From assembly GCA_902760805.1 (NCBI GenBank), contig CACWHY010000007.1:9588-73587 (forward strand): a DNA stretch of 64,000 bases. Reading direction: 5' to 3'. Source of the DNA: Ruminococcus flavefaciens (GTDB lineage: Bacteria; Bacillota; Clostridia; Oscillospirales; Ruminococcaceae). Position numbers and translations under genes: made by a program. Positions 12,540 through 33,844 of the stretch are shown piece after piece (position 1 is the stretch's first letter; each line of letters starts with the position of its first letter). Under the pieces are notes generated by a model. That model did not search any database, was not told where the DNA came from, and saw only the letters and a program-made list of their open reading frames with translations.

Positions 12540-13979
12540 TTACTGAACAGGATCATTTACGATACCCACAAACAGCGGCAGTCCTGTCTCGCTCATGATC
12601 TCAAAGATAAACGGTCTGTCCAGCTTGAAGTCCACATGATCTTCAGGAACGCCTGCACCTTCATAAGCCATGATCGTTAGAGAAGCCGCTTTGCAGCCCT
12701 CCTCGTCAATGGTAACTCTTGTATCTTGCTCTGCTTGACTCAGAAAAACACGCTCTGTATCGGTCAAAGGCGTAAAATTGGATCTTCCTGCATCAAAAAT
12801 ATCGGTAATGCCAAGCGCATTCAGTCCGGCACGCAGGTCTATTTTGGAAGAAACGTCAAATTTCGGAACAGACATATCAACGATCACATACTTGTTGTTC
12901 GGATAGTCCCAATTACTGAGCATAAGCTCTTTGACCTGTTCATCATTCAATAGATCGTCAGGTGAATGACCCTCGTCAGGAAGTATCAGCTTCATGTGAC
13001 CGTTATTTTCGAGCTGTAAGCTGACCGATGAGAAATGCTCTCCCCAACAATATCCCATATCTCTCTCTGAGTTCATGAAGTCACATTCGACATCACCGCC
13101 GACCGCATGAAATACGCCCTTTTCAGTATTTTCTGGCAAGAACTTGTTATTCCATTTTCCACTATAATTAACAGTAGAAGCAAGTGTCAGCAGCATTTCT
13201 GGATCCATTTTTATATCCGATACATAGTTTTCAAGAAGTCCGTCTGTCTGCTCATTCATCCAATCTTGCAACATCTTATTGTAATCATCAGATACAGGAT
13301 TACCAGTATACACAGATGAATAGTAAGTGTCGGCAAGTGTATCCACCGTATCCTGCTTATAATCGGCGTTACTGTTCGTCCAAAGAGAATTGGCGAGGAT
13401 ACATTTGGCCATACCATCATCCATATAATTCGCCAGCCAGATAGATCTCGAATGTGACCGCAGAGTATCAATATCTCCCTGACCAAGCACATCGAGTATC
13501 TGCTGTCTGCTGCTTCCGTCAGTTATCTCAGCCGACATACCAAGTGCCATATACAGGCTTAACGGAGAATATACAATGTTTTCACTCTCGGCTCCTGTTA
13601 GAAATGTGTTCGCTGTATCAGAAAAAAACGTGTCAAAGCCGTCTTTGTATCCTGCCGGTTGATCTCTTAACGCTTGTTTTGCATCGTTCCATTGTGTTAA
13701 AGCATCTTGATCCATTTCATCAGGATACATAGGCATTTCGGGATATGCTGCCGCTGCAAGTAACATCGCATTGCTGCCGACCTTGTCAGAAGGAGAGATC
13801 ACAGTATCATCACCTGTTTTCGGGAGAATAGCAATACAGGCAATGACCGCCGCAGCACATACTCCGCCCAGAGCAGTCCACTTGATAATGCTGCTCTTTT
13901 TCTTTTTGGCAGTCAGTTCAGGAACGAGTTTTTCATCTGTATCACCGATCACATCAAGAAGAATATCCTTGTTTTTCAT
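12540..13979 (-). CDS. membrane-anchored serpin with an anti-sigma-like N-terminus
   Basis: Short cytoplasmic N-terminus, then Lys-rich stretch, then TM (IIKWTALGGVCAAAVIACIAILP). The rest is serpin-like, ending in hinge/RCL DEEGCKAASLTIMAYEGAGVPEDHVDFKLDRPFIFEI. Its ATG overlaps the sigma gene stop (ATGA). Confidence 0.85.
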   Translation of the reverse strand: MKNKDILLDVIGDTDEKLVPELTAKKKKSSIIKWTALGGVCAAAVIACIAILPKTGDDTVISPSDKVGSNAMLLAAAAYPEMPMYPDEMDQDALTQWNDAKQALRDQPAGYKDGFDTFFSDTANTFLTGAESENIVYSPLSLYMALGMSAEITDGSSRQQILDVLGQGDIDTLRSHSRSIWLANYMDDGMAKCILANSLWTNSNADYKQDTVDTLADTYYSSVYTGNPVSDDYNKMLQDWMNEQTDGLLENYVSDIKMDPEMLLTLASTVNYSGKWNNKFLPENTEKGVFHAVGGDVECDFMNSERDMGYCWGEHFSSVSLQLENNGHMKLILPDEGHSPDDLLNDEQVKELMLSNWDYPNNKYVIVDMSVPKFDVSSKIDLRAGLNALGITDIFDAGRSNFTPLTDTERVFLSQAEQDTRVTIDEEGCKAASLTIMAYEGAGVPEDHVDFKLDRPFIFEIMSETGLPLFVGIVNDPVQ

Positions 13980-14527
13980 ACGCCTACACCTTCCTTTTCT
14001 AAGTAAACTCTGAGTTTATCCCGAATACGCTGTAATATCATTTTGACAGCGCCCTCAGAAATGCCATTCCGTTTTGCTATCTCAGCTACAGGCATCATGT
14101 ACCAGTAACGCAGGAGAAATATCTTTCTGTTTTTGTCGGGGAGACTGCGAAGAAAGCTGTCCATAAGCTCCTTTAGTGCGAGCCTGTCCTCAATGGGAGT
14201 ATCTTCACCGATACATTCTCCCAGTTCGTCAAGACATAATGCAACTTGTCCGCCGCCATATTTTTTTGATCTATCCTTGCGGTACTTGTCGATCGCAAGA
14301 TTACGGGTGATCTTACCAAAGAATACCGTTAATCGGCTCGGCTTTTCAGGGGGCATAGTATTCCAAGCACGAAGCCAGGTATCATTAACGCATTCCTCTG
14401 TATCCTCTGCTGAGTGCAGAATGTTGTTCGCAATGGTACTGCAATAACCGCCGTATTTCGTCTTGCTTTCTTTTATTGCAGATCCTTTTCTTTGCCAGTA
14501 AAGCTCTATGATATGAAGATCTTCCAT
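13976..14527 (-). CDS. RNA polymerase sigma-70 family (ECF-like) sigma factor
   Basis: Region-2-like ECVNDTWLRAW and region-4 HTH PVAEIAKRNGISEGAVKMILQRIRDKL. The start MEDLHII is preceded by GAGGAGG. Confidence 0.85.
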   Translation of the reverse strand: MEDLHIIELYWQRKGSAIKESKTKYGGYCSTIANNILHSAEDTEECVNDTWLRAWNTMPPEKPSRLTVFFGKITRNLAIDKYRKDRSKKYGGGQVALCLDELGECIGEDTPIEDRLALKELMDSFLRSLPDKNRKIFLLRYWYMMPVAEIAKRNGISEGAVKMILQRIRDKLRVYLEKEGVGV

Positions 14528-14612
14528 AGCGCACCTCCTCGATGCCCCTTCACCCATATAGACGAGATCCATATTGCTCAGGTAACGGTAATTTTGAAAA
14601 AAATCTATGATC

Positions 14613-14641
14613 ATTATATCACAGATAACACGAATACGCAA
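14613..14641 (-). promoter_or_regulatory. candidate sigma-70-type promoter of the sigma-serpin operon
   Basis: The minus strand reads TTGCGT-17 nt-TATAAT. Confidence 0.45.
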
Positions 14642-17546: not shown

Positions 17547-18830
17547 TTATTTGGAGCTGGCGAGGTATCTCTCACGCATGAGGATCAGGTCAAAGACCTC
17601 GATCCGGCGGTTTTGGCAGAGATCTCCTGCCTGCCAGTTTTTCAGCTGTCCGTTACCAAGGAGGAAGCTCTGCATGGCCACCAGGTCGGCGATAGTGAAC
17701 TCGCCGTCGGAATTCACGTCGCATTGGGTCTCCTGAGACTGGCCCTTCACCAAAATATCCACGCTGGTGACGGTCATCTCCTGAGAGGACGAGGCAGTGA
17801 CGGTCAGCCGGTCAAGGTCGGTGTAGCCGATGTCCAGGCTGTCCAGAGCGGCCTGAAGATCGCTTGCCAGGAAGCAGGCTGTGTCGCCGTTGGAGTAGAA
17901 GGGCTGCACCTGCTGCCAAACGGCGGTGCCTGACCACTTCTGCAATGCGATCACCGGCGGGTCTGGGCAGCTGTACTTCACCTCAATGGCGAAGCTGTCT
18001 CCCAGCTTTTCCAGCTCGGCGCCGTCCAGCACAGCGGTGTCGCTCCAGCCTGACCAGCTGCTTGCGCCCGCAGCCTCACCTGTGAAGATGTTCTTGTAGG
18101 GGGAGTAGCCAGAACAGGGGTATTTGGCAACAGTGGTGTAGATCATATTGCCCTTGGGAGTCTCGCCCTGACGCTGAAAAAGCTCGGTGAGCGTGACGAA
18201 CTCATAGCCCTGATCGATGAGCTCCGGCACCACGATCTTCAGAGCGTCAACGGTCTGGCTGTTTCCGGCAGCATCATGGAGGAGCACGATAACGCCGTCC
18301 CTGGCGCCGTTTAGGATAAAGTCGGCACGCTGCTGGGCGGTGACGTTCTCCATATAGTCCTTGCAGTCGATGCCGCAGATGAACGGCAGGTCGATGTTGT
18401 CATACATGGTCTGGCTGACGTCGATGAATGGCGGCCGGAAGAACTTAGTGTGTTCCCCGGTGATCTCCAGCACCTTCTGGTCAACGAACTCCACCTCGGC
18501 CTTGATGTCATCGGGAGCCATGCCGCCCATATTTGAGTGGGTCTTGGAGTGGTTGTCGATCTCGCAGCCCATATCGTAGGCACGCTTAACGGACTTGGCG
18601 CTGTCCTCATTGATGTTGTCGCCGATGAGGAAGAATGAGGCCTTAGCGCCGTATTCCTCCAGAATATCCAGCACATCGTTGGTGGTGGTAGTGTTAGGGC
18701 CGTCGTCAAAGGTCAGAGCGATGAGCTTTGTCTCCTGAGCCTGGGCACGAGCCGGGATCGCCGGCAGAAATGCTGTCATCATTGCAGCCGCCGCAGCTGC
18801 TGCCAGCACTTTGATAAAGGTATTCTTCAT
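17547..18830 (-). CDS. secreted polysaccharide deacetylase (NodB domain) with a C-terminal dockerin
   Basis: Signal peptide MKNTFIKVLAAAAAAAMMTAFLPAIPARAQA and NodB motif LTFDDGPN. The C-terminus CDVNSDGEFTIADLVAMQSFLLG is a dockerin repeat, followed by a degenerate second repeat. Confidence 0.85.
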   Translation of the reverse strand: MKNTFIKVLAAAAAAAMMTAFLPAIPARAQAQETKLIALTFDDGPNTTTTNDVLDILEEYGAKASFFLIGDNINEDSAKSVKRAYDMGCEIDNHSKTHSNMGGMAPDDIKAEVEFVDQKVLEITGEHTKFFRPPFIDVSQTMYDNIDLPFICGIDCKDYMENVTAQQRADFILNGARDGVIVLLHDAAGNSQTVDALKIVVPELIDQGYEFVTLTELFQRQGETPKGNMIYTTVAKYPCSGYSPYKNIFTGEAAGASSWSGWSDTAVLDGAELEKLGDSFAIEVKYSCPDPPVIALQKWSGTAVWQQVQPFYSNGDTACFLASDLQAALDSLDIGYTDLDRLTVTASSSQEMTVTSVDILVKGQSQETQCDVNSDGEFTIADLVAMQSFLLGNGQLKNWQAGDLCQNRRIEVFDLILMRERYLASSK

Positions 18831-28635: not shown

Positions 28636-28668
28636 GAAAAAAGCGGCAGAGAGAAAACTCTCTGCCGC
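28636..28668 (-). terminator. intrinsic terminator after the dockerin/anti-sigma-like gene
   Basis: 11-bp stem gcggcagagag-aaaa-ctctctgccgc, followed by a T-run on the minus strand. Confidence 0.75.
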
Positions 28669-28680
28669 AGTCGTATCATA

Positions 28681-30303
28681 TCAGAGACCGGCGTCCCACA
28701 TTTGCAGAGCCAGAGCGTCCATTCCGTCAACTCCGTCGCCTGTATCGTGAACGTCAGCGTTTTTCAGTCCCTCCTCAGTAAGGGGATACTTTTCCGGAAG
28801 AGCGATATACTGGAGAACAGCCACAGCATCGCTCAGGTCGGTCCTGCCGTCGCAGTTAGCGTCGCCGCTTGCCGGAGCAGCAGCCATGTCCGGAGCTACC
28901 TCGCCGGAGGAGTACCTTTCCCTGAGGTCTACAAGGTGCTGGCCTTGCTCAGCAGAAGAGGGGATATGGCCATTGTCACGCTTGAAATACCTGAGAAGGA
29001 TATTTGCGTCGTAGATGTCTACACAGCCGCTTTCGTTGAAGTCGGCGATTTCCTTGATGTGGTCGGTGATATCCGTTGGCACGAAGGGAACGATGTGATT
29101 CTGCTCATAAATTGGAGCGTACAGGGTCTGGATAATGTCGATGTAGTCGAAATAGTCGAAAACTCCGTCGCCGTTCAGATCCTTTTCCAGCTCGCCGCTG
29201 TCCAGCTTTGCAAAGATCGGCACCTCTTCCTCGGTGGGGATGATCTCCTCCCTCAGATAAGTGGCACGAGCCTCCTCCATGTATTCGCAAAATCTGCCAA
29301 CAGCCTCTGCTCCGTCTGTTGAGTGGAACTGATAGCCCTCCACAGCCTCCAGGATCTCCTCAGTAGTGGGGAGACTGCCGTTTTTGTAAAGGTAGAAAAT
29401 GGTGTAGCTTATGTTGGCGCTGGATGACGGAACAGCCCAATGCGGATTAGCCGAGTGCTCACGGATCTTGTCCATGTAGGACTGGTCGAACACTGAGAGA
29501 GCCTCAAACATCTCCTCGGGGTGTGTCTCGCCGCCAAAATAGCCGTATTTTTCCCTGACCTGTGCCAGTGAAGCGTCATAGATCTCGTTGTAATGGAAGA
29601 TCTCGCAAAGGTCGCATATATCCAGCTCACCGTTGTCATTTGCATCGACTAAAATGTCGTTTTCCTGGATATATTCTATGAAACTCAGCTCATCTCCTGT
29701 GAAGTCACGCCACTCCTCCGCATAAGCCTTAGCAGGTAAGATCGCAGCGAAGGTCAGGACCGCTGAAAAGAATGCAGCATACTTTTTCATATATTCTTCA
29801 TCTCCTTCATTCAACTCTTGGCTGGGAGCAGTGGTCACCTCAGGCAGCTCCGGGAGAAAGCTCTCCGTGGGGAAGATCTCCTCCGGCGGCTCTGTATCAG
29901 GGCTATCCGGAAGGAGCTCCTGCTGCGGCGGCACAACTGGCAGCTCAGCCTTGTCGTTTTCCTTATTCTCGTGGAAGGCAGGCTCTGTTTTGTCTGGAGC
30001 AGTCACGTTTTGCTCAGGGCTTGCCGCCGTGGTCACTGCCGGAGCCGAAGATCCCGGCTCCCTCTCATCTGTCCCCACGGAAGGCTCCTCAGTGGCTAAA
30101 GCAGCAGTAGGCTCAGGCATTCTCCGCTCAGGCGGCCTGAGAGCGGGATCTTTCCCTGCGAAAACCGCCAGCAGGAAAGCTCCGCACACCGCAGCCGCAG
30201 CCCCGGATACTCTCCGGAACAACACACGCCTCCGGCGCTTTTCGGCCTCCGCCCGATCACGGCGCTCAAGAACGGCCGCTGCCATTTCCCTATAGTCCCG
30301 CAT
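28681..30303 (-). CDS. anti-sigma-like membrane protein fused to dockerin/EF-hand-repeat modules
   Basis: N-terminal Arg-rich segment plus TM (GAAAAVCGAFLLAVFAG), then a Pro/Glu-rich linker and an internal signal-peptide-like segment at res 172-195. Ca-binding repeats follow (DANDNGELDICD, DLNGDGVFDYFD, DFNESGCVDIYD). The C-terminus carries a canonical dockerin (DANCDGRTDLSDAVAVLQYI ... DTGDGVDGMDALALQMW). The start overlaps the sigma gene by 14 nt. Confidence 0.7.
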   Translation of the reverse strand: MRDYREMAAAVLERRDRAEAEKRRRRVLFRRVSGAAAAVCGAFLLAVFAGKDPALRPPERRMPEPTAALATEEPSVGTDEREPGSSAPAVTTAASPEQNVTAPDKTEPAFHENKENDKAELPVVPPQQELLPDSPDTEPPEEIFPTESFLPELPEVTTAPSQELNEGDEEYMKKYAAFFSAVLTFAAILPAKAYAEEWRDFTGDELSFIEYIQENDILVDANDNGELDICDLCEIFHYNEIYDASLAQVREKYGYFGGETHPEEMFEALSVFDQSYMDKIREHSANPHWAVPSSSANISYTIFYLYKNGSLPTTEEILEAVEGYQFHSTDGAEAVGRFCEYMEEARATYLREEIIPTEEEVPIFAKLDSGELEKDLNGDGVFDYFDYIDIIQTLYAPIYEQNHIVPFVPTDITDHIKEIADFNESGCVDIYDANILLRYFKRDNGHIPSSAEQGQHLVDLRERYSSGEVAPDMAAAPASGDANCDGRTDLSDAVAVLQYIALPEKYPLTEEGLKNADVHDTGDGVDGMDALALQMWDAGL

Positions 30304-30844
30304 GGAAGATCCCCTCCTTCTCCAGCTCTGTTTTCAGAGCCTTTTTCGCCTGATACAGCAGATTTGTCATCTGCCGGCTGCTTTTTCCCATGACAGCTGC
30401 CGCGTCTGAGACCTTGAATCCCTCAAGATACACCAGACAAACAGCCTGCCTGTACTCCGGCCGGAGCTTCCGCAGCGCCCTATGGACAGCGATACGCTGC
30501 TCCTCACGAAGATAATTTGCCTCGATGTCCTCGTCGCCAGCAATGTCGAGGATCTCGGCAGCTCCTGCACGAAGAGCCTTAGGCTTCCTGCGCAGTGAGT
30601 CAAGAGCTAAGTTCCGCCCTATGGAATAAAGCCATGTTTTGAAAGTGCTCTGCCCGGAAAACCGGGGCTTTTTGTAGGCCAGCCGGAAGAAGGTCTCCTC
30701 GGTCAGATCCTCGGCCTCGCCAAGGTCGCCTACTATCGAGCACAAGTACATAGTGAGCCCGTCCTTATAGCTGCAAACCAGCTCAGTCATGGCAAGATCG
30801 TCGCCGCTCAGATAGCGGCTGTAGCAGCTCTGGCCATTATCCAT
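30290..30844 (-). CDS. ECF-type RNA polymerase sigma factor
   Basis: Region 2 (EDLTEETFFRLAY, TWLYSIGRNLALD) and region 4 (YRQAVCLVYLEGFKVSDAAAVMGKSSRQMTNLLYQAKKAL). Confidence 0.85.
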   Translation of the reverse strand: MDNGQSCYSRYLSGDDLAMTELVCSYKDGLTMYLCSIVGDLGEAEDLTEETFFRLAYKKPRFSGQSTFKTWLYSIGRNLALDSLRRKPKALRAGAAEILDIAGDEDIEANYLREEQRIAVHRALRKLRPEYRQAVCLVYLEGFKVSDAAAVMGKSSRQMTNLLYQAKKALKTELEKEGIFHAGL

Positions 30845-30920
30845 TGATCGGCTCCTTTCCGGAAAATTGTGCCTTTCATCTTATTAGACGAGGGCTGAGG
30901 CAAAATGTCTTAGTGTTTTC

Positions 30921-30952
30921 AAAAAAATCCCGGAGCTGTGAGAACTCCGGGA
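30921..30952 (-). terminator. intrinsic terminator after the SIMPL gene
   Basis: Minus-strand hairpin tcccggag...ctccggga (8 bp) followed by TTTTTTT. Confidence 0.7.
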
Positions 30953-32662: not shown

Positions 32663-33844
32663 ATGAAGAGTTTCGTCAAAAGAGCAGCTGCTACAGCCGT
32701 GGGCTGTACAATGCTCGTGTCGTCTACAGGAATGACCGCTTCGGCGGTGGGAATGACCTATCCTGCTAGCGATTCCTATAAGAGCGGCGTTTACTTTAAG
32801 AATATTTCCGCAGTTCAGCTTACAGGAGATCAGCGTGTTGACATCGTGGCAGTTGCGCAGTCTCAGCTGGGCTATCATGAGGGCAGCAACGCCAATGACC
32901 TTTCCGGAAATTCCAACGGCTCCGGAAACTTCACAGAGTATGGCAAGAGAGCCGGAAACGTGAGCATGGGCTGGTGTGCCGCATTTGTCTCTTGGTGCGC
33001 AGACCAGGCCAGAGTCCCGTCAAGCATCATCAAGCGCCAATATACGGCCGATAACATCACCAAGCAGTCCAAGACCGGACTCTTCGGCGGCACATTCAAG
33101 GCCTACGGTACATATATCCCAAAGCCCGGCGATATCGTATACTGGGATACCAATGAGCCTCTGAACAACAATTCCGACCACGTTGAGATAGTCGTTGCGG
33201 TCAGCGGCTCGACTATCACCTCAATCGGCGGAAATTCCTCAGATAAGGTCAAGACCCACACTGTGGATCTTTCTTCCAGCGACGGCTTCTCGTATTTCCA
33301 CATTTTAGGCTTTGAGGTGCCGAATTATACAAGTTCTGCGGCTGCGACTACAACGACTACGACAGTCACAACGACAGTCACAACGACTACGGAAACGACA
33401 ACTACTGTTCCCGTGACGACAGAGCCGCCTTTTGAGCCTGAATACTCCTACGGAGATGTGGACGGCGACGGAACTGTAGACGCATCAGACGCTTCACTGC
33501 TCCTAGCCGAGTACGCTGCACGTCAGACAAATACCGCTAACGAGATTGCTGAAGAGGCCTCTCAGTATGCCGATATCGACGGCGACGGCTTCGTAGATGC
33601 AACTGACGCATCTATCGTTCTGCAATACTACTCTTATGTGCAGACCGGCGGCGATTCGGCTCTGGCCGATTACATGGAGAACATTTACTCCGCAGAGCCT
33701 GAGACAGAGGACCCGACTGAGGAGGAGCCTCCTGCCCAGCCTTCTGAGGAAGAACTTGCAGACCGACCCTCCGACCAGGACAGCGAAACTGAGCTGATTG
33801 AGGACAAGCCTGAGTTGAACACTGAGGAACAGCTCCAGGAATGA
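32663..33844 (+). CDS. secreted CHAP-domain (peptidoglycan amidase/peptidase) protein with a Thr-rich linker and a dockerin
   Basis: Signal peptide, CHAP catalytic Cys context GWCAAFVSWC and His context SDHVEIVVAV. Linker TTTTTTVTTTVTTTTETTTTVPVTTE. Dockerin repeats DVDGDGTVDASDASLLLAEYA and DIDGDGFVDATDASIVLQYYS. Acidic tail. Confidence 0.85.
   Translation: MKSFVKRAAATAVGCTMLVSSTGMTASAVGMTYPASDSYKSGVYFKNISAVQLTGDQRVDIVAVAQSQLGYHEGSNANDLSGNSNGSGNFTEYGKRAGNVSMGWCAAFVSWCADQARVPSSIIKRQYTADNITKQSKTGLFGGTFKAYGTYIPKPGDIVYWDTNEPLNNNSDHVEIVVAVSGSTITSIGGNSSDKVKTHTVDLSSSDGFSYFHILGFEVPNYTSSAAATTTTTTVTTTVTTTTETTTTVPVTTEPPFEPEYSYGDVDGDGTVDASDASLLLAEYAARQTNTANEIAEEASQYADIDGDGFVDATDASIVLQYYSYVQTGGDSALADYMENIYSAEPETEDPTEEEPPAQPSEEELADRPSDQDSETELIEDKPELNTEEQLQE

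What the first reader, a model, noticed from the sequence alone, without database searches (positions are those of the whole stretch)
28681..30844. Second ECF sigma paired with an anti-sigma-like protein whose ectodomain is built from dockerin/EF-hand repeats
Seen in the sequence:
- The ECF sigma gene (30290-30844) overlaps by 14 nt a 540-aa ORF.
- That ORF has an Arg-rich N-terminus and one TM (GAAAAVCGAFLLAVFAG), then a Pro/Glu-rich linker.
- Isolated Ca-binding-loop-like repeats follow (DANDNGELDICDLCEIF, DLNGDGVFDYFDYIDIIQTL, DFNESGCVDIYDANILLRYF).
- The C-terminus carries a canonical two-segment dockerin (DANCDGRTDLSDAVAVLQYI ... DTGDGVDGMDALALQMW).

Established knowledge: in cellulosome producers, SigI/RsgI-type anti-sigma factors carry carbohydrate-binding sensor domains. 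Dockerins normally dock enzymes onto cohesins of scaffoldins.

Inference: an anti-sigma factor carrying a dockerin could report cohesin occupancy or scaffoldin availability to transcription. This would be a feedback link between surface-complex assembly and gene expression. Alternatively it could anchor the signalling protein in the complex.
Basis: partly seen in the sequence, partly recalled or inferred. Interest (0 to 1): 0.65.

Follow-up and report, generated by a model that had tools for sequence, protein, structure and literature searches.

The report
Sigma partner gene hiding a secreted twin
A rumen Ruminococcus pairs a stress-type sigma factor with a membrane protein that carries a cellulosome docking module, and the same gene holds a conserved internal start site and export signal, so it probably also makes a free secreted copy, which suggests a possible link between gene control and cellulosome assembly.

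Summary
An ECF sigma gene (30290-30844, -) overlaps by 14 nt a 540-aa ORF (28681-30303, -). That ORF has a short Arg-rich N-terminus, one TM helix, an acidic Pro/Glu linker, three isolated dockerin-type Ca loops and a true C-terminal dockerin (R. flavefaciens group 1 type).

The pairing is not chance. All 80 sampled relatives of this sigma have an overlapping partner with the same roughly 35-aa N-terminal motif plus a TM. Sigma type and N-terminal type co-vary even where the ectodomains are swapped. The operon has its own conserved ECF-type promoter and is flanked by terminators.

The main new result lies at codon 172. There the ORF contains an in-frame Shine-Dalgarno, ATG, Lys-Lys and a Sec signal peptide. 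This 26-nt stretch is the longest run identical at nucleotide level among orthologues that share only 44-49% amino-acid identity. It recurs in 13 family loci, and a stand-alone secreted homologue starts exactly there. The linker frame also stays open in 13/13 loci.

Best reading: one gene gives two products, a membrane-tethered anti-sigma-like form and a free secreted dockerin protein.

Cohesin-occupancy sensing remains untested. The pair is not a SigI/RsgI member. I found no published description.

The parts
30928..30952 (-). Intrinsic terminator of the upstream SIMPL/DUF541 gene. It isolates the operon on its 5' side.
   Evidence: 10-bp stem followed by TTTTTTT.
30884..30913 (-). ECF-type promoter, CTAAGA-N17-CGTCTAA. 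Predicted to be autoregulatory.
   Evidence: The motif is conserved at about -75 to -45 upstream of 41/77 related sigma genes. It is the only strict match in the 64-kb window. 21/22 strict matches in 735 kb of related loci lie directly upstream of sigma genes.
30290..30844 (-). ECF sigma factor gene, 184 aa, with regions 2 and 4.
   Evidence: Pfam Sigma70_r2, r4_2 and ECF, and TIGR02937. 597 relatives at E<=1e-10; those that carry a name are mostly Ruminococcus.
30290..30303 (-). 14-nt overlap between the sigma stop and the start of the long ORF (translational coupling). The SD AAGGAGGGG lies 8 nt upstream of that ATG.
   Evidence: dG -12.7. The same -14 overlap recurs in many of the 80 loci.
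28681..30303 (-). Long ORF, 540 aa: the membrane-tethered anti-sigma-like dockerin protein.
   Evidence: The frame is open through the linker in 13/13 family loci, against 71 and 66 stops in the other two frames.
30205..30303 (-). Cytoplasmic N-terminal segment, aa 1-33 (MRDYREMAAAVLERRDRAEAEKRRRRVLFRRVS). Putative sigma-binding helix.
   Evidence: The motif M[KR]xYxE..A..V..RRD.Y...KK.KR is conserved in 80/80 partners of this sigma type. It co-varies with sigma type. No Pfam family matches.
30154..30204 (-). Transmembrane helix, aa 34-50.
   Evidence: Kyte-Doolittle 2.05 over 19 aa.
29809..30153 (-). Acidic Pro/Glu/Thr linker, aa 51-165. Presumed to span the cell wall.
   Evidence: Composition. 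Length and sequence vary between homologues but the frame is always open.
29783..29808 (-). Internal translation-initiation region, GAAGGAGATGAAGAATATATGAAAAA (SD, 10-nt spacer, ATG of Met172 at 29788-29790).
   Evidence: It is the longest stretch identical at nucleotide level in three orthologues (26 nt; the next longest is 11 nt). SD dG is -9.7, stronger than all 20 other ATGs in the gene. Local GC is 0.30 against 0.55 for the gene, and mRNA structure is low.
29719..29790 (-). Sec-type signal peptide of the short form, aa 172-195 (MKKYAAFFSAVLTFAAILPAKAYA|EE).
   Evidence: It has an n-region KK, a 15-aa h-region and an AxA site, with A195 and E197 invariant. It is detached from the fold, at pLDDT <50, in the model. 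The stand-alone homologue P0112 starts here.
28894..29718 (-). All-alpha ectodomain of unknown fold, aa 196-470. It carries three F-hand Ca loops (29611-29646, 29146-29181, 29008-29043).
   Evidence: AlphaFold pLDDT is about 80 to 90 over most of it, and Foldseek finds no PDB match outside the dockerin. The loop residues are invariant.
28684..28869 (-). C-terminal dockerin, aa 479-540, of R. flavefaciens group 1 type.
   Evidence: Pfam Dockerin_1. 5M2O_B at E 7.4e-14 and 51% identity. Of 6 published cohesin-contact residues, 4 are identical and 1 is conservatively changed.
28643..28668 (-). Intrinsic terminator ending the operon.
   Evidence: 11-bp stem with 8 GC pairs, followed by TTTTTT.

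Best explanation
This is a self-contained, autoregulated two-gene operon of a rumen Ruminococcus.

The operon (shown):
- An ECF-type promoter (CTAAGA-N17-CGTCTAA) precedes the sigma gene, and terminators flank the unit.
- The sigma gene is translationally coupled, through a 14-nt overlap, to a 540-aa ORF.
- That ORF is an in-frame fusion of two modules.

Module 1: a roughly 33-aa cytoplasmic helix plus one TM. This module always accompanies this sigma family, so it is inferred to be the sigma-binding, anti-sigma part.

Module 2: after a roughly 115-aa acidic linker, a complete secreted cellulosomal protein. It keeps its own Shine-Dalgarno, ATG, Sec signal peptide, a novel all-alpha Ca-loop domain and a group 1 dockerin.

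Selection (shown):
- The fused frame stays open in every family locus examined.
- The internal initiation region is conserved at nucleotide level.

Products (inferred): the mRNA yields two proteins.
- The long form is anchored in the membrane. Its linker is long enough to cross the wall and present the ectodomain and dockerin to ScaA/ScaB-type cohesins.
- The short form (Met172-540) is exported. It is cleaved after about Ala195 and joins the cellulosome as a free component identical to the tethered ectodomain.

Signalling (speculative): the state of the tethered copy would control release of the sigma factor. That state could be docked or undocked, outcompeted by the free copy, or proteolysed. 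Released sigma re-transcribes the same operon. The system would then tune production of this dockerin protein to cohesin availability or ligand.
For: Sigma and pairing:
- Pfam and NCBIfam identify an ECF sigma.
- All 80 GTDB loci fetched with the sigma alignment have an overlapping downstream ORF with the conserved N-terminal motif plus a TM.
- Four sigma types (A-D) each go with their own N-terminal flavour in 10/10 family loci. Meanwhile the window's closest ectodomain homologues (P0002 and P0003, 44-49% identity) carry a different sigma and N-terminal type.

Operon:
- The promoter motif is conserved and almost exclusive to sigma upstream regions.
- Terminators flank the unit, and there is no internal sigma-70-like promoter.
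- Metatranscriptome contigs span the sigma/ORF junction and the internal start.

Internal start:
- A strong SD lies 7-10 nt before the internal ATG in 10/10 loci, with dG -8.2 to -12.6. That puts it in the top 0-7% of all ATGs in each gene.
- A 26-nt block is identical across three orthologues, whereas only 39% of conserved degenerate codons are identical elsewhere.
- The region is unstructured and AT-rich in 13/13 loci.
- P0112 is a stand-alone secreted homologue starting at the same MKK signal peptide. A gene call in genome assembly GCA_000701945.1 chose the internal start.
- The internal signal peptide occurs only in dockerin-bearing partners (5/7) and in 0/73 others. SD and signal peptide decay together in L019 and L020.

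Long form: there are 0 stops in the linker frame in 13/13 loci, against 71 and 66 in the other frames.

Dockerin. Group 1 dockerins bind ScaA Coh1-2 and ScaB Coh1-4 (PMC5429695).
Against: - There is no direct evidence for either protein product. No proteomics, ribosome profiling or 5'-end data are available, and the RNA evidence is low-depth contigs only.
- No known anti-sigma domain is detected in the N-terminus. A sigma/N-terminus complex prediction could not be run.
- Topology of the long form is awkward. The internal signal-peptide-like segment has to pass through the translocon without acting as a stop-transfer.
- In some relatives (L018, L019, L020) the internal SD and signal peptide are weak or decayed. 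The short form is therefore not indispensable to the family.
- The rest of the genome is unseen, so further regulon members and the cohesin partners are unknown.
- One of six cohesin-contact residues differs (L87 to A).
Confidence: 0.6

Rival explanations
1. There is a single product only. The 540-aa membrane protein is the sole functional product. The internal SD/ATG/signal-peptide block is then kept for a role within the long protein. It could be a signal-peptidase-type site-1 cleavage site that releases the ectodomain (as RsiV is cut by signal peptidase), a membrane-associating hinge, or an SD-like translational pause that helps export.
For: - The fused frame is universally open.
- In L019 and L020 the long ORF persists although the internal SD and signal peptide have decayed.
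- The AxA site and the A195/E197 invariance would also fit a protease site.
- RsiV cleavage by signal peptidase is a known precedent (own knowledge).
Against: - A protease site or hinge does not explain conservation of synonymous positions over 26 nt. That block includes the SD, the ATG itself and AAAAA.
- It does not explain the AT-rich unstructured window.
- It does not explain the use of AGG/AGT codons that spell AGGAG in 6 loci carrying the 'ERS' motif.
- SD and signal peptide decay together, as expected if they serve one function, namely initiation plus export.
- A translocated h-region lies in the wrong orientation for signal peptidase.
Confidence: 0.22
2. The pairing is an ordinary ECF sigma/anti-sigma pair, and the dockerin merely anchors or localises the protein. 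The sensed signal would be unrelated to cohesins, for example envelope stress, Ca2+, or a ligand of the all-alpha domain. Cellulosome assembly would then not feed back on transcription.
For: - The same sigma and N-terminal module is fused to many unrelated ectodomains without dockerins. That is 73/80 loci, including a serpin. The signalling chassis is therefore generic.
- Only the operon's own promoter carries the motif locally.
Against: - Dockerin-bearing partners form the clade closest to the window's sigma: the top five hits, L017-L021, all have one.
- A second, unrelated dockerin fusion exists (L035). Recurrent recruitment of dockerins suggests the docking matters.
- This rival is compatible with the dual-product reading. 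It differs only on what is sensed.
Confidence: 0.45
3. The long ORF is an evolutionary or annotation accident. On this view the real genes are a short anti-sigma and a separate secreted dockerin protein, and read-through into the second is non-functional.
For: - Some gene callers annotate only the short form (P0023, P0055, P0149).
- A stand-alone homologue exists.
Against: - No stop codon separates the two parts in any of 13 loci, although the linkers differ in length and sequence. The per-locus chance of an open frame is 0.001-0.08.
- The identical 540-aa product is seen on 13 contigs.
- The apparent 'short' N-terminal proteins (P0072, P0085) end in unrelated tails that look frameshifted.
Confidence: 0.04

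Closest known systems
SigI/RsgI biomass-sensing pairs of Clostridium (Acetivibrio) thermocellum and relatives
   Same: - Multiple paralogous sigma/anti-sigma operons occur in a cellulosome producer.
- The anti-sigma has a short cytoplasmic N-terminus, one TM and an extracellular cellulosome-related module.
- The operons are bicistronic and autoregulated.
   Different: - The sigma here is a two-domain ECF, not a SigI.
- No RsgI_N domain or RsgI autoproteolytic periplasmic domain is detected.
- The outer module is a dockerin-bearing protein rather than a CBM, GH or PA14 sensor.
- A nested internal start is present.
- The literature states that Ruminococcus lacks RsgI receptors (PMC11557425; PMC12663171).
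ECF sigma V / RsiV of Bacillus subtilis and other RIP-controlled single-pass anti-sigma factors (own knowledge)
   Same: - An ECF sigma is co-transcribed with a single-pass anti-sigma.
- A signal-peptidase-type AxA site is implicated in ectodomain release.
- The promoter is autoregulated.
   Different: - There is no DUF4179 or lysozyme-binding domain.
- The AxA site here sits about 145 residues beyond the TM, inside a complete signal peptide preceded by an SD and an ATG.
Short (class II) anti-sigma domains such as CnrY and NepR (own knowledge)
   Same: The sigma-facing segment is only about 30-45 residues, so a 33-aa N-terminus is not too short to bind an ECF sigma.
   Different: There is no significant sequence similarity. 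The best NepR hit is E 0.013, and only to a type-D N-terminus. Binding is untested.
In-frame nested genes using internal translation initiation (two-polypeptide phage endolysins, PMC9430671; bacterial N-terminal proteoforms, PMC11005335; ClpB, IF2 and CheA from own knowledge)
   Same: An internal SD and start codon lie in the same frame, and the two products share a C-terminus.
   Different: Here the internal start exposes a signal peptide. The two products would therefore differ in compartment and topology (membrane-tethered against free extracellular), and the long form is a transcription regulator's partner. I found no described example of this among anti-sigma factors.
R. flavefaciens group 1 dockerin proteins of unknown function
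   Same: - The dockerin is 51% identical to Doc1a (5M2O_B).
- Contact residues S40, V43, Q47 and Q83 are kept, and I39 becomes L.
- 118 dockerin proteins of R. flavefaciens FD-1 contain domains of unknown function (PMC2930009).
   Different: - It sits in a sigma operon and is fused to a TM/anti-sigma module.
- L87 is replaced by A.
- The FD-1 dockerin inventory paper contains neither the word 'sigma' nor 'transmembrane'.

Membership tests
ECF (group 4) sigma-70 factors | Regions sigma2 and sigma4 are present, and regions 1.1 and 3 are absent. Size is about 170-200 aa. | tested here: met
   Sigma70_r2 covers aa 25-87 and Sigma70_r4_2 covers aa 119-170. Sigma70_ECF and TIGR02937 score 81.5 bits against a cutoff of 42.9. 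The protein is 184 aa.
ECF (group 4) sigma-70 factors | An autoregulated promoter with a conserved -35 element and a CGT-containing -10 element. | tested here: met
   CTAAGA-N17-CGTCTAA is conserved upstream of related sigma genes and is nearly exclusive to them. Its function was not tested experimentally.
Membrane anti-sigma factors of ECF sigmas | Co-transcribed and adjacent to the sigma gene, with a cytoplasmic N-terminus followed by a single TM. | tested here: met
   There is a 14-nt overlap, a 33-aa N-terminus and one TM. The arrangement is conserved in 80/80 loci.
Membrane anti-sigma factors of ECF sigmas | A recognisable anti-sigma domain (ASD/zf-HC2, RskA, RsgI_N, NepR and similar). 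| tested here: not met
   No Pfam or NCBIfam family matches the full protein or the N-terminal 64 aa at E<=1.
Membrane anti-sigma factors of ECF sigmas | Physical binding and inhibition of the cognate sigma. | not testable with these tools
The only indirect support is co-variation of sigma type with N-terminal type.
SigI/RsgI system | A SigI-type sigma, the RsgI N-terminal domain, and the RsgI periplasmic autoproteolytic domain. | tested here: not met
   Pfam scans show only ECF sigma domains and Dockerin_1.
Type I dockerin (Pfam PF00404), R. flavefaciens group 1 | Two F-hand Ca-binding loops each followed by a helix, scoring above the Pfam gathering threshold. | tested here: met
   39.2 bits against 22.9. 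Foldseek gives TM 0.76 (target-normalised), rmsd 1.6 A and 51% identity to 5M2O_B.
Type I dockerin (Pfam PF00404), R. flavefaciens group 1 | Conservation of the single-binding-mode contact residues of Doc1a: I39, S40, V43, Q47, Q83 and L87. | tested here: inconclusive
   The window protein has L, S, V, Q, Q and A at these positions. Four are identical, one is conservative and one is changed (alignment; residue list).
Type I dockerin (Pfam PF00404), R. flavefaciens group 1 | Ca-dependent binding to a cognate cohesin. | not testable with these tools
   No cohesin gene lies in the window. A binding assay is needed.
EF-hand proteins | Paired EF-hands recognised by the EF-hand profiles. | tested here: not met
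   EF-hand_7 gives E 0.21 and 12.4 bits against a cutoff of 30. Foldseek matches to EF-hand proteins have probability below 0.1. The loops have Asp at position 12, as dockerins do.
Genes with functional in-frame internal initiation | A conserved SD, spacer and start codon inside the ORF, with constraint at synonymous sites. | tested here: met
Genes with functional in-frame internal initiation | Demonstrated second polypeptide. | not testable with these tools
   No proteomic or ribosome-profiling data are available.

The most novel reading that the evidence does not exclude
One gene encodes both a membrane-tethered anti-sigma sensor and, from a conserved internal start, its free secreted twin. 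The two compete for the same ScaA/ScaB cohesins. Cohesin vacancy would then be read out by the tethered copy and converted, through the ECF sigma, into more of the free copy. This would be a self-titrating occupancy feedback, and it would be the first regulatory mechanism proposed for ruminococcal cellulosomes, which lack RsgI sensors.
Probability: 0.2. Interest if true: 0.88.

Novelty: new variant of a known kind. Interest (0 to 1): 0.7.

Why it matters
How Ruminococcus regulates its cellulosome or amylosome genes is an open question. Recent papers state that these bacteria lack the RsgI receptors used by clostridial cellulosome producers (PMC11557425, PMC12663171).

This locus, and the family found around it, offers a concrete and testable candidate. 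It is an expanded set of ECF sigma / single-pass partner pairs, and in the R. flavefaciens group their outer part is a cellulosome-docking protein.

The nested internal start would also be an unusual use of in-frame alternative initiation. It would give one protein two topologies, a tethered regulator and a free structural component, from one mRNA.

Related loci come from named strains and isolate-type assemblies (R. flavefaciens Y1; GCA_000701945.1; GCA_000621785.1). The experiments are therefore feasible if those strains can be grown.

At a practical level, these genes are inconsistently annotated, some as long forms and some as short. That affects counts of signal-peptide-bearing dockerin proteins.

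Tried and rejected
1. Known anti-sigma or RsgI domains. Pfam and NCBIfam scans of the whole protein and of six N-termini found nothing significant.

2. First genome-contig scan with the ectodomain alignment found no relatives. The metagenome scan gave only 3 loci. The second genome scan, with the sigma alignment, was the productive one.

Sigma binding therefore stays inferred.

4. Fold search of the ectodomain. Only the dockerin matched PDB, and the central domain has no structural relative.

5. Split forms as an ancestral state. P0072 and P0085, which end near the internal start, have unrelated C-terminal tails that look frameshifted. P0023 'starts' at the internal Met only because of gene calling, since the upstream frame is open.

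6. An internal promoter for the short form. No sigma-70-like or ECF-type motif lies inside the operon.

7. A local regulon. The ECF promoter motif is found nowhere else in the window or in the flanks of related loci.

8. Transcript 5' ends. Only low-depth metatranscriptome contigs exist, and they show transcription but not start sites.

9. A cohesin partner in the window. None was found among the large ORFs.

10. Two DNA-search runs failed on pattern syntax. They were redone in Python.
Full report
**What is there**

On the minus strand, a 184-aa ORF (30290-30844) overlaps by 14 nt (ATGCGGGACTATAG) a 540-aa ORF (28681-30303).

The first ORF is an ECF sigma factor. Pfam matches Sigma70_r2, r4_2 and Sigma70_ECF, and NCBIfam matches TIGR02937 above its cutoff.

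The second ORF reads as follows:
- 33 Arg-rich residues;
- a hydrophobic helix, VSGAAAAVCGAFLLAVFAG;
- a roughly 115-aa acidic Pro/Glu linker;
- three DxNxDGxxDxxD loops, whose key residues are invariant in homologues down to 26% identity;
- a C-terminal Dockerin_1 domain, scoring 39.2 bits against a threshold of 22.9.

The identical protein occurs on 13 contigs, and its named close relatives are annotated as hypothetical proteins of Ruminococcus sp. MAGs. DNA runs that hold the locus are bovine and sheep gut and digester metagenomes.

**The pairing is systematic**

Three homologues of the 540-aa protein (P0003, P0010 and P0002) also sit directly after, or overlapping, an ECF sigma gene. So do five further family members.

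I used an alignment of the window sigma and 46 relatives to fetch 80 loci from species-representative genomes. They come from Ruminococcus, Oscillospiraceae, Acutalibacteraceae and Lachnospiraceae. In 80/80 loci an ORF overlapping or within a few nucleotides of the sigma stop, commonly with the same -14 geometry, begins with the motif M[KR]xYxE..A..V..RRD.Y...KK.KR. A TM follows.

Across the dockerin family there are at least four sigma types, and each goes with its own N-terminal flavour. The window's nearest ectodomain relatives (44-49% identity) carry a different sigma and N-terminus pair. The N-terminal module therefore travels with the sigma and not with the ectodomain.

This is the best evidence available here that the module is the sigma-facing, anti-sigma part.

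**The operon**

Upstream of related sigma genes lies a conserved ECF-type promoter, [C/G]T[A/G]AGA-N17-CGTCTAA. The window copy is at 30884-30913.
- It is the only strict match in the 64 kb.
- 21 of 22 strict matches in 735 kb of related loci lie immediately upstream of sigma genes.
- Strong terminators flank the unit at 30928-30952 and 28643-28668. No sigma-70-like promoter lies inside it.
- Metatranscriptome contigs cover the sigma gene, the junction, the linker and the 3' part at low depth.

The unit therefore looks like an autoregulated bicistronic operon whose only local output is itself.

**The unexpected part: an internal start**

At codon 172 the ORF reads EGDEEY-MKKYAAFFSAVLTFAAILPAKAYA-EEW. 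This is a textbook Sec signal peptide. In the DNA it is preceded by GAAGGAGAT, 10 nt before the ATG. Homologues keep this feature. The evidence that it is an initiation site, not merely a peptide motif, is as follows.

1. In 10/10 family loci an AGGAG, GGAGG or GGGAG lies 7-10 nt upstream of the ATG. Duplex energies with the anti-SD are -8.2 to -12.6 kcal/mol. These are comparable with the true starts of the same genes and rank in the top 0-7% of all ATGs in each gene.
2. In the three closest orthologues (44-49% amino-acid identity), the longest nucleotide run identical in all three is the 26-nt GAAGGAGATGAAGAATATATGAAAAA. The next longest run is 11 nt. Only 39% of conserved degenerate codons are identical elsewhere.
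3. The 40-nt window around the ATG is less structured than the gene mean in 13/13 loci and shows a local GC dip. In the window gene it is 0.30 against 0.55.
4. A stand-alone homologue with no sigma nearby (P0112, locus L008) begins exactly at this MKK signal peptide. In genome assembly GCA_000701945.1, the gene call chose the internal start although the upstream frame is open and overlaps the sigma stop.
5. Among the 80 sigma partners, an internal signal peptide occurs only in dockerin-bearing ones (5 of 7) and in none of the other 73. In L019 and L020 the SD and the signal peptide have decayed together.
6. In the AlphaFold model of residues 172-540 (pLDDT 77.8), the first 24 residues are a detached low-confidence helix and are not part of the fold.

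**The long form is also selected**

The linker differs in length and sequence between loci. Even so, the reading frame from the TM to the internal ATG has 0 stops in 13/13 loci, against 71 and 66 in the other two frames. The per-locus chance of an open frame is 0.001-0.08.

The locus is therefore not two separate genes. It is a fusion in which both the long frame and the internal initiation region are maintained. The simplest reading is two products: a roughly 58-kDa membrane-tethered form, and a roughly 37-kDa secreted form (after cleavage near Ala195) identical to the tethered ectodomain.

**The ectodomain and dockerin**

Foldseek against PDB matches only the C-terminal 60-70 residues. The best hit is 5M2O_B, the R. 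flavefaciens group 1 dockerin bound to ScaB cohesin 3, at 51% identity and rmsd 1.6 A. phmmer gives E 7.4e-14.

The published Doc1a contact residues are I39, S40, V43, Q47, Q83 and L87 (PMC5429695). The window protein has L, S, V, Q, Q and A at those positions. Group 1 dockerins bind ScaA cohesins 1-2 and ScaB cohesins 1-4 in R. flavefaciens FD-1.

The central all-alpha domain has no structural relative, and EF-hand profiles do not reach threshold. No cohesin gene lies in the window.

**How it most likely works**

Shown:
- an ECF sigma gene;
- an overlapping start codon preceded by its own SD, consistent with translational coupling;
- a conserved candidate promoter of the type seen in autoregulated ECF operons;
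- a genuine dockerin;
- a conserved internal initiation region with a signal peptide;
- a conserved fused frame.

Inferred:
- the N-terminal helix binds the sigma;
- the linker carries the ectodomain across the wall to surface cohesins;
- the internal start yields a free secreted twin.

Speculative: docking, competition with the free twin, or proteolysis of the tethered copy controls sigma release. The operon would then titrate its own dockerin protein against cohesin availability.

**Comparison with known systems**

Functionally this resembles the SigI/RsgI biomass sensors of cellulosomal clostridia, but it is not a member. The sigma is a plain ECF, and no RsgI domains are present. The literature says Ruminococcus lacks RsgI receptors and that its regulation is unknown.

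It also recalls RsiV-type anti-sigmas cut by signal peptidase, and short class II anti-sigma domains (both from own knowledge). There is no sequence evidence for membership in either.

In-frame internal initiation is known for phage endolysins and other bacterial proteoforms. I found no example that exposes a signal peptide inside an anti-sigma factor, and no paper describing a dockerin-bearing anti-sigma.

**Verdict**

The anti-sigma-plus-dockerin reading is well supported by context. Cohesin sensing is untested.

It is a new variant of the ECF sigma/anti-sigma theme, and I did not find it described. It bears on an open question in cellulosome biology. Interest 0.7.

Noticed in passing
window 12540-14641 (-): The other ECF sigma in the window (13976-14641) overlaps by 4 nt a 479-aa protein. 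That protein has a short N-terminus, one TM (IIKWTALGGVCAAAVIACIAILP) and a full serpin domain at aa 125-477. It looks like an anti-sigma-like protein with a protease-inhibitor ectodomain, and it has no internal signal peptide. A second serpin fusion, on the type-A chassis, occurs in L033 (a Lachnoclostridium MAG).
   Followed up: partly
window 32663-33844 (+): A 393-aa secreted protein carries CHAP/DUF2272 (a cell-wall amidase-like domain), a poly-Thr linker, a Dockerin_1 domain at aa 263-322 and an acidic C-terminal tail. It is a dockerin-borne peptidoglycan hydrolase lying 1.8 kb from the sigma operon on the opposite strand. It has no ECF promoter motif.
   Followed up: partly
L035 (Ruminococcus sp. 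RGIG8638), ORF starting 5021: A type-A sigma partner of 591 aa has an unrelated beta-rich-looking ectodomain and a different dockerin (DVNLDGTIGVDD...DVDGDGAVTLSD). It has no internal signal peptide. This suggests a second, independent recruitment of a dockerin onto this anti-sigma chassis.
   Followed up: partly
L017-L022, L024, L089, L009, L011 and window 30908-30913: The sigma clade whose partners mostly carry dockerins uses CTAAGA as its -35 element. Most other type-A sigmas use GTGAGA or CTGAGA. This may reflect promoter insulation between paralogues.
   Followed up: no
L007 3427-4035 (-) and 4001-5176 (+): In genome assembly GCA_000701945.1, gene calls include a probably spurious 181-aa antisense ORF over the linker and only the short form of the dockerin gene. 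Family members are inconsistently annotated as long or short forms in public data.
   Followed up: yes
P0012 (570 aa): This cluster representative joins an MnmE/TrmE-like N-terminal half to the C-terminal half of a P0010-like family member. It is probably an assembly chimera.
   Followed up: no
window 29950-30070 (linker, aa ~78-93): A short motif, TDEREPxSxAxAV, inside the otherwise unconserved linker is invariant in the window protein, P0002 and P0003. These proteins have different sigma and N-terminal modules, so the module-swap junction lies between the TM and this motif. Its role is unknown.
   Followed up: no
window 17547-18830 (-): A 427-aa protein combines a polysaccharide deacetylase (CE4) domain with a CBM65 domain. 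It is a plant-cell-wall-related enzyme in an otherwise housekeeping neighbourhood.
   Followed up: no
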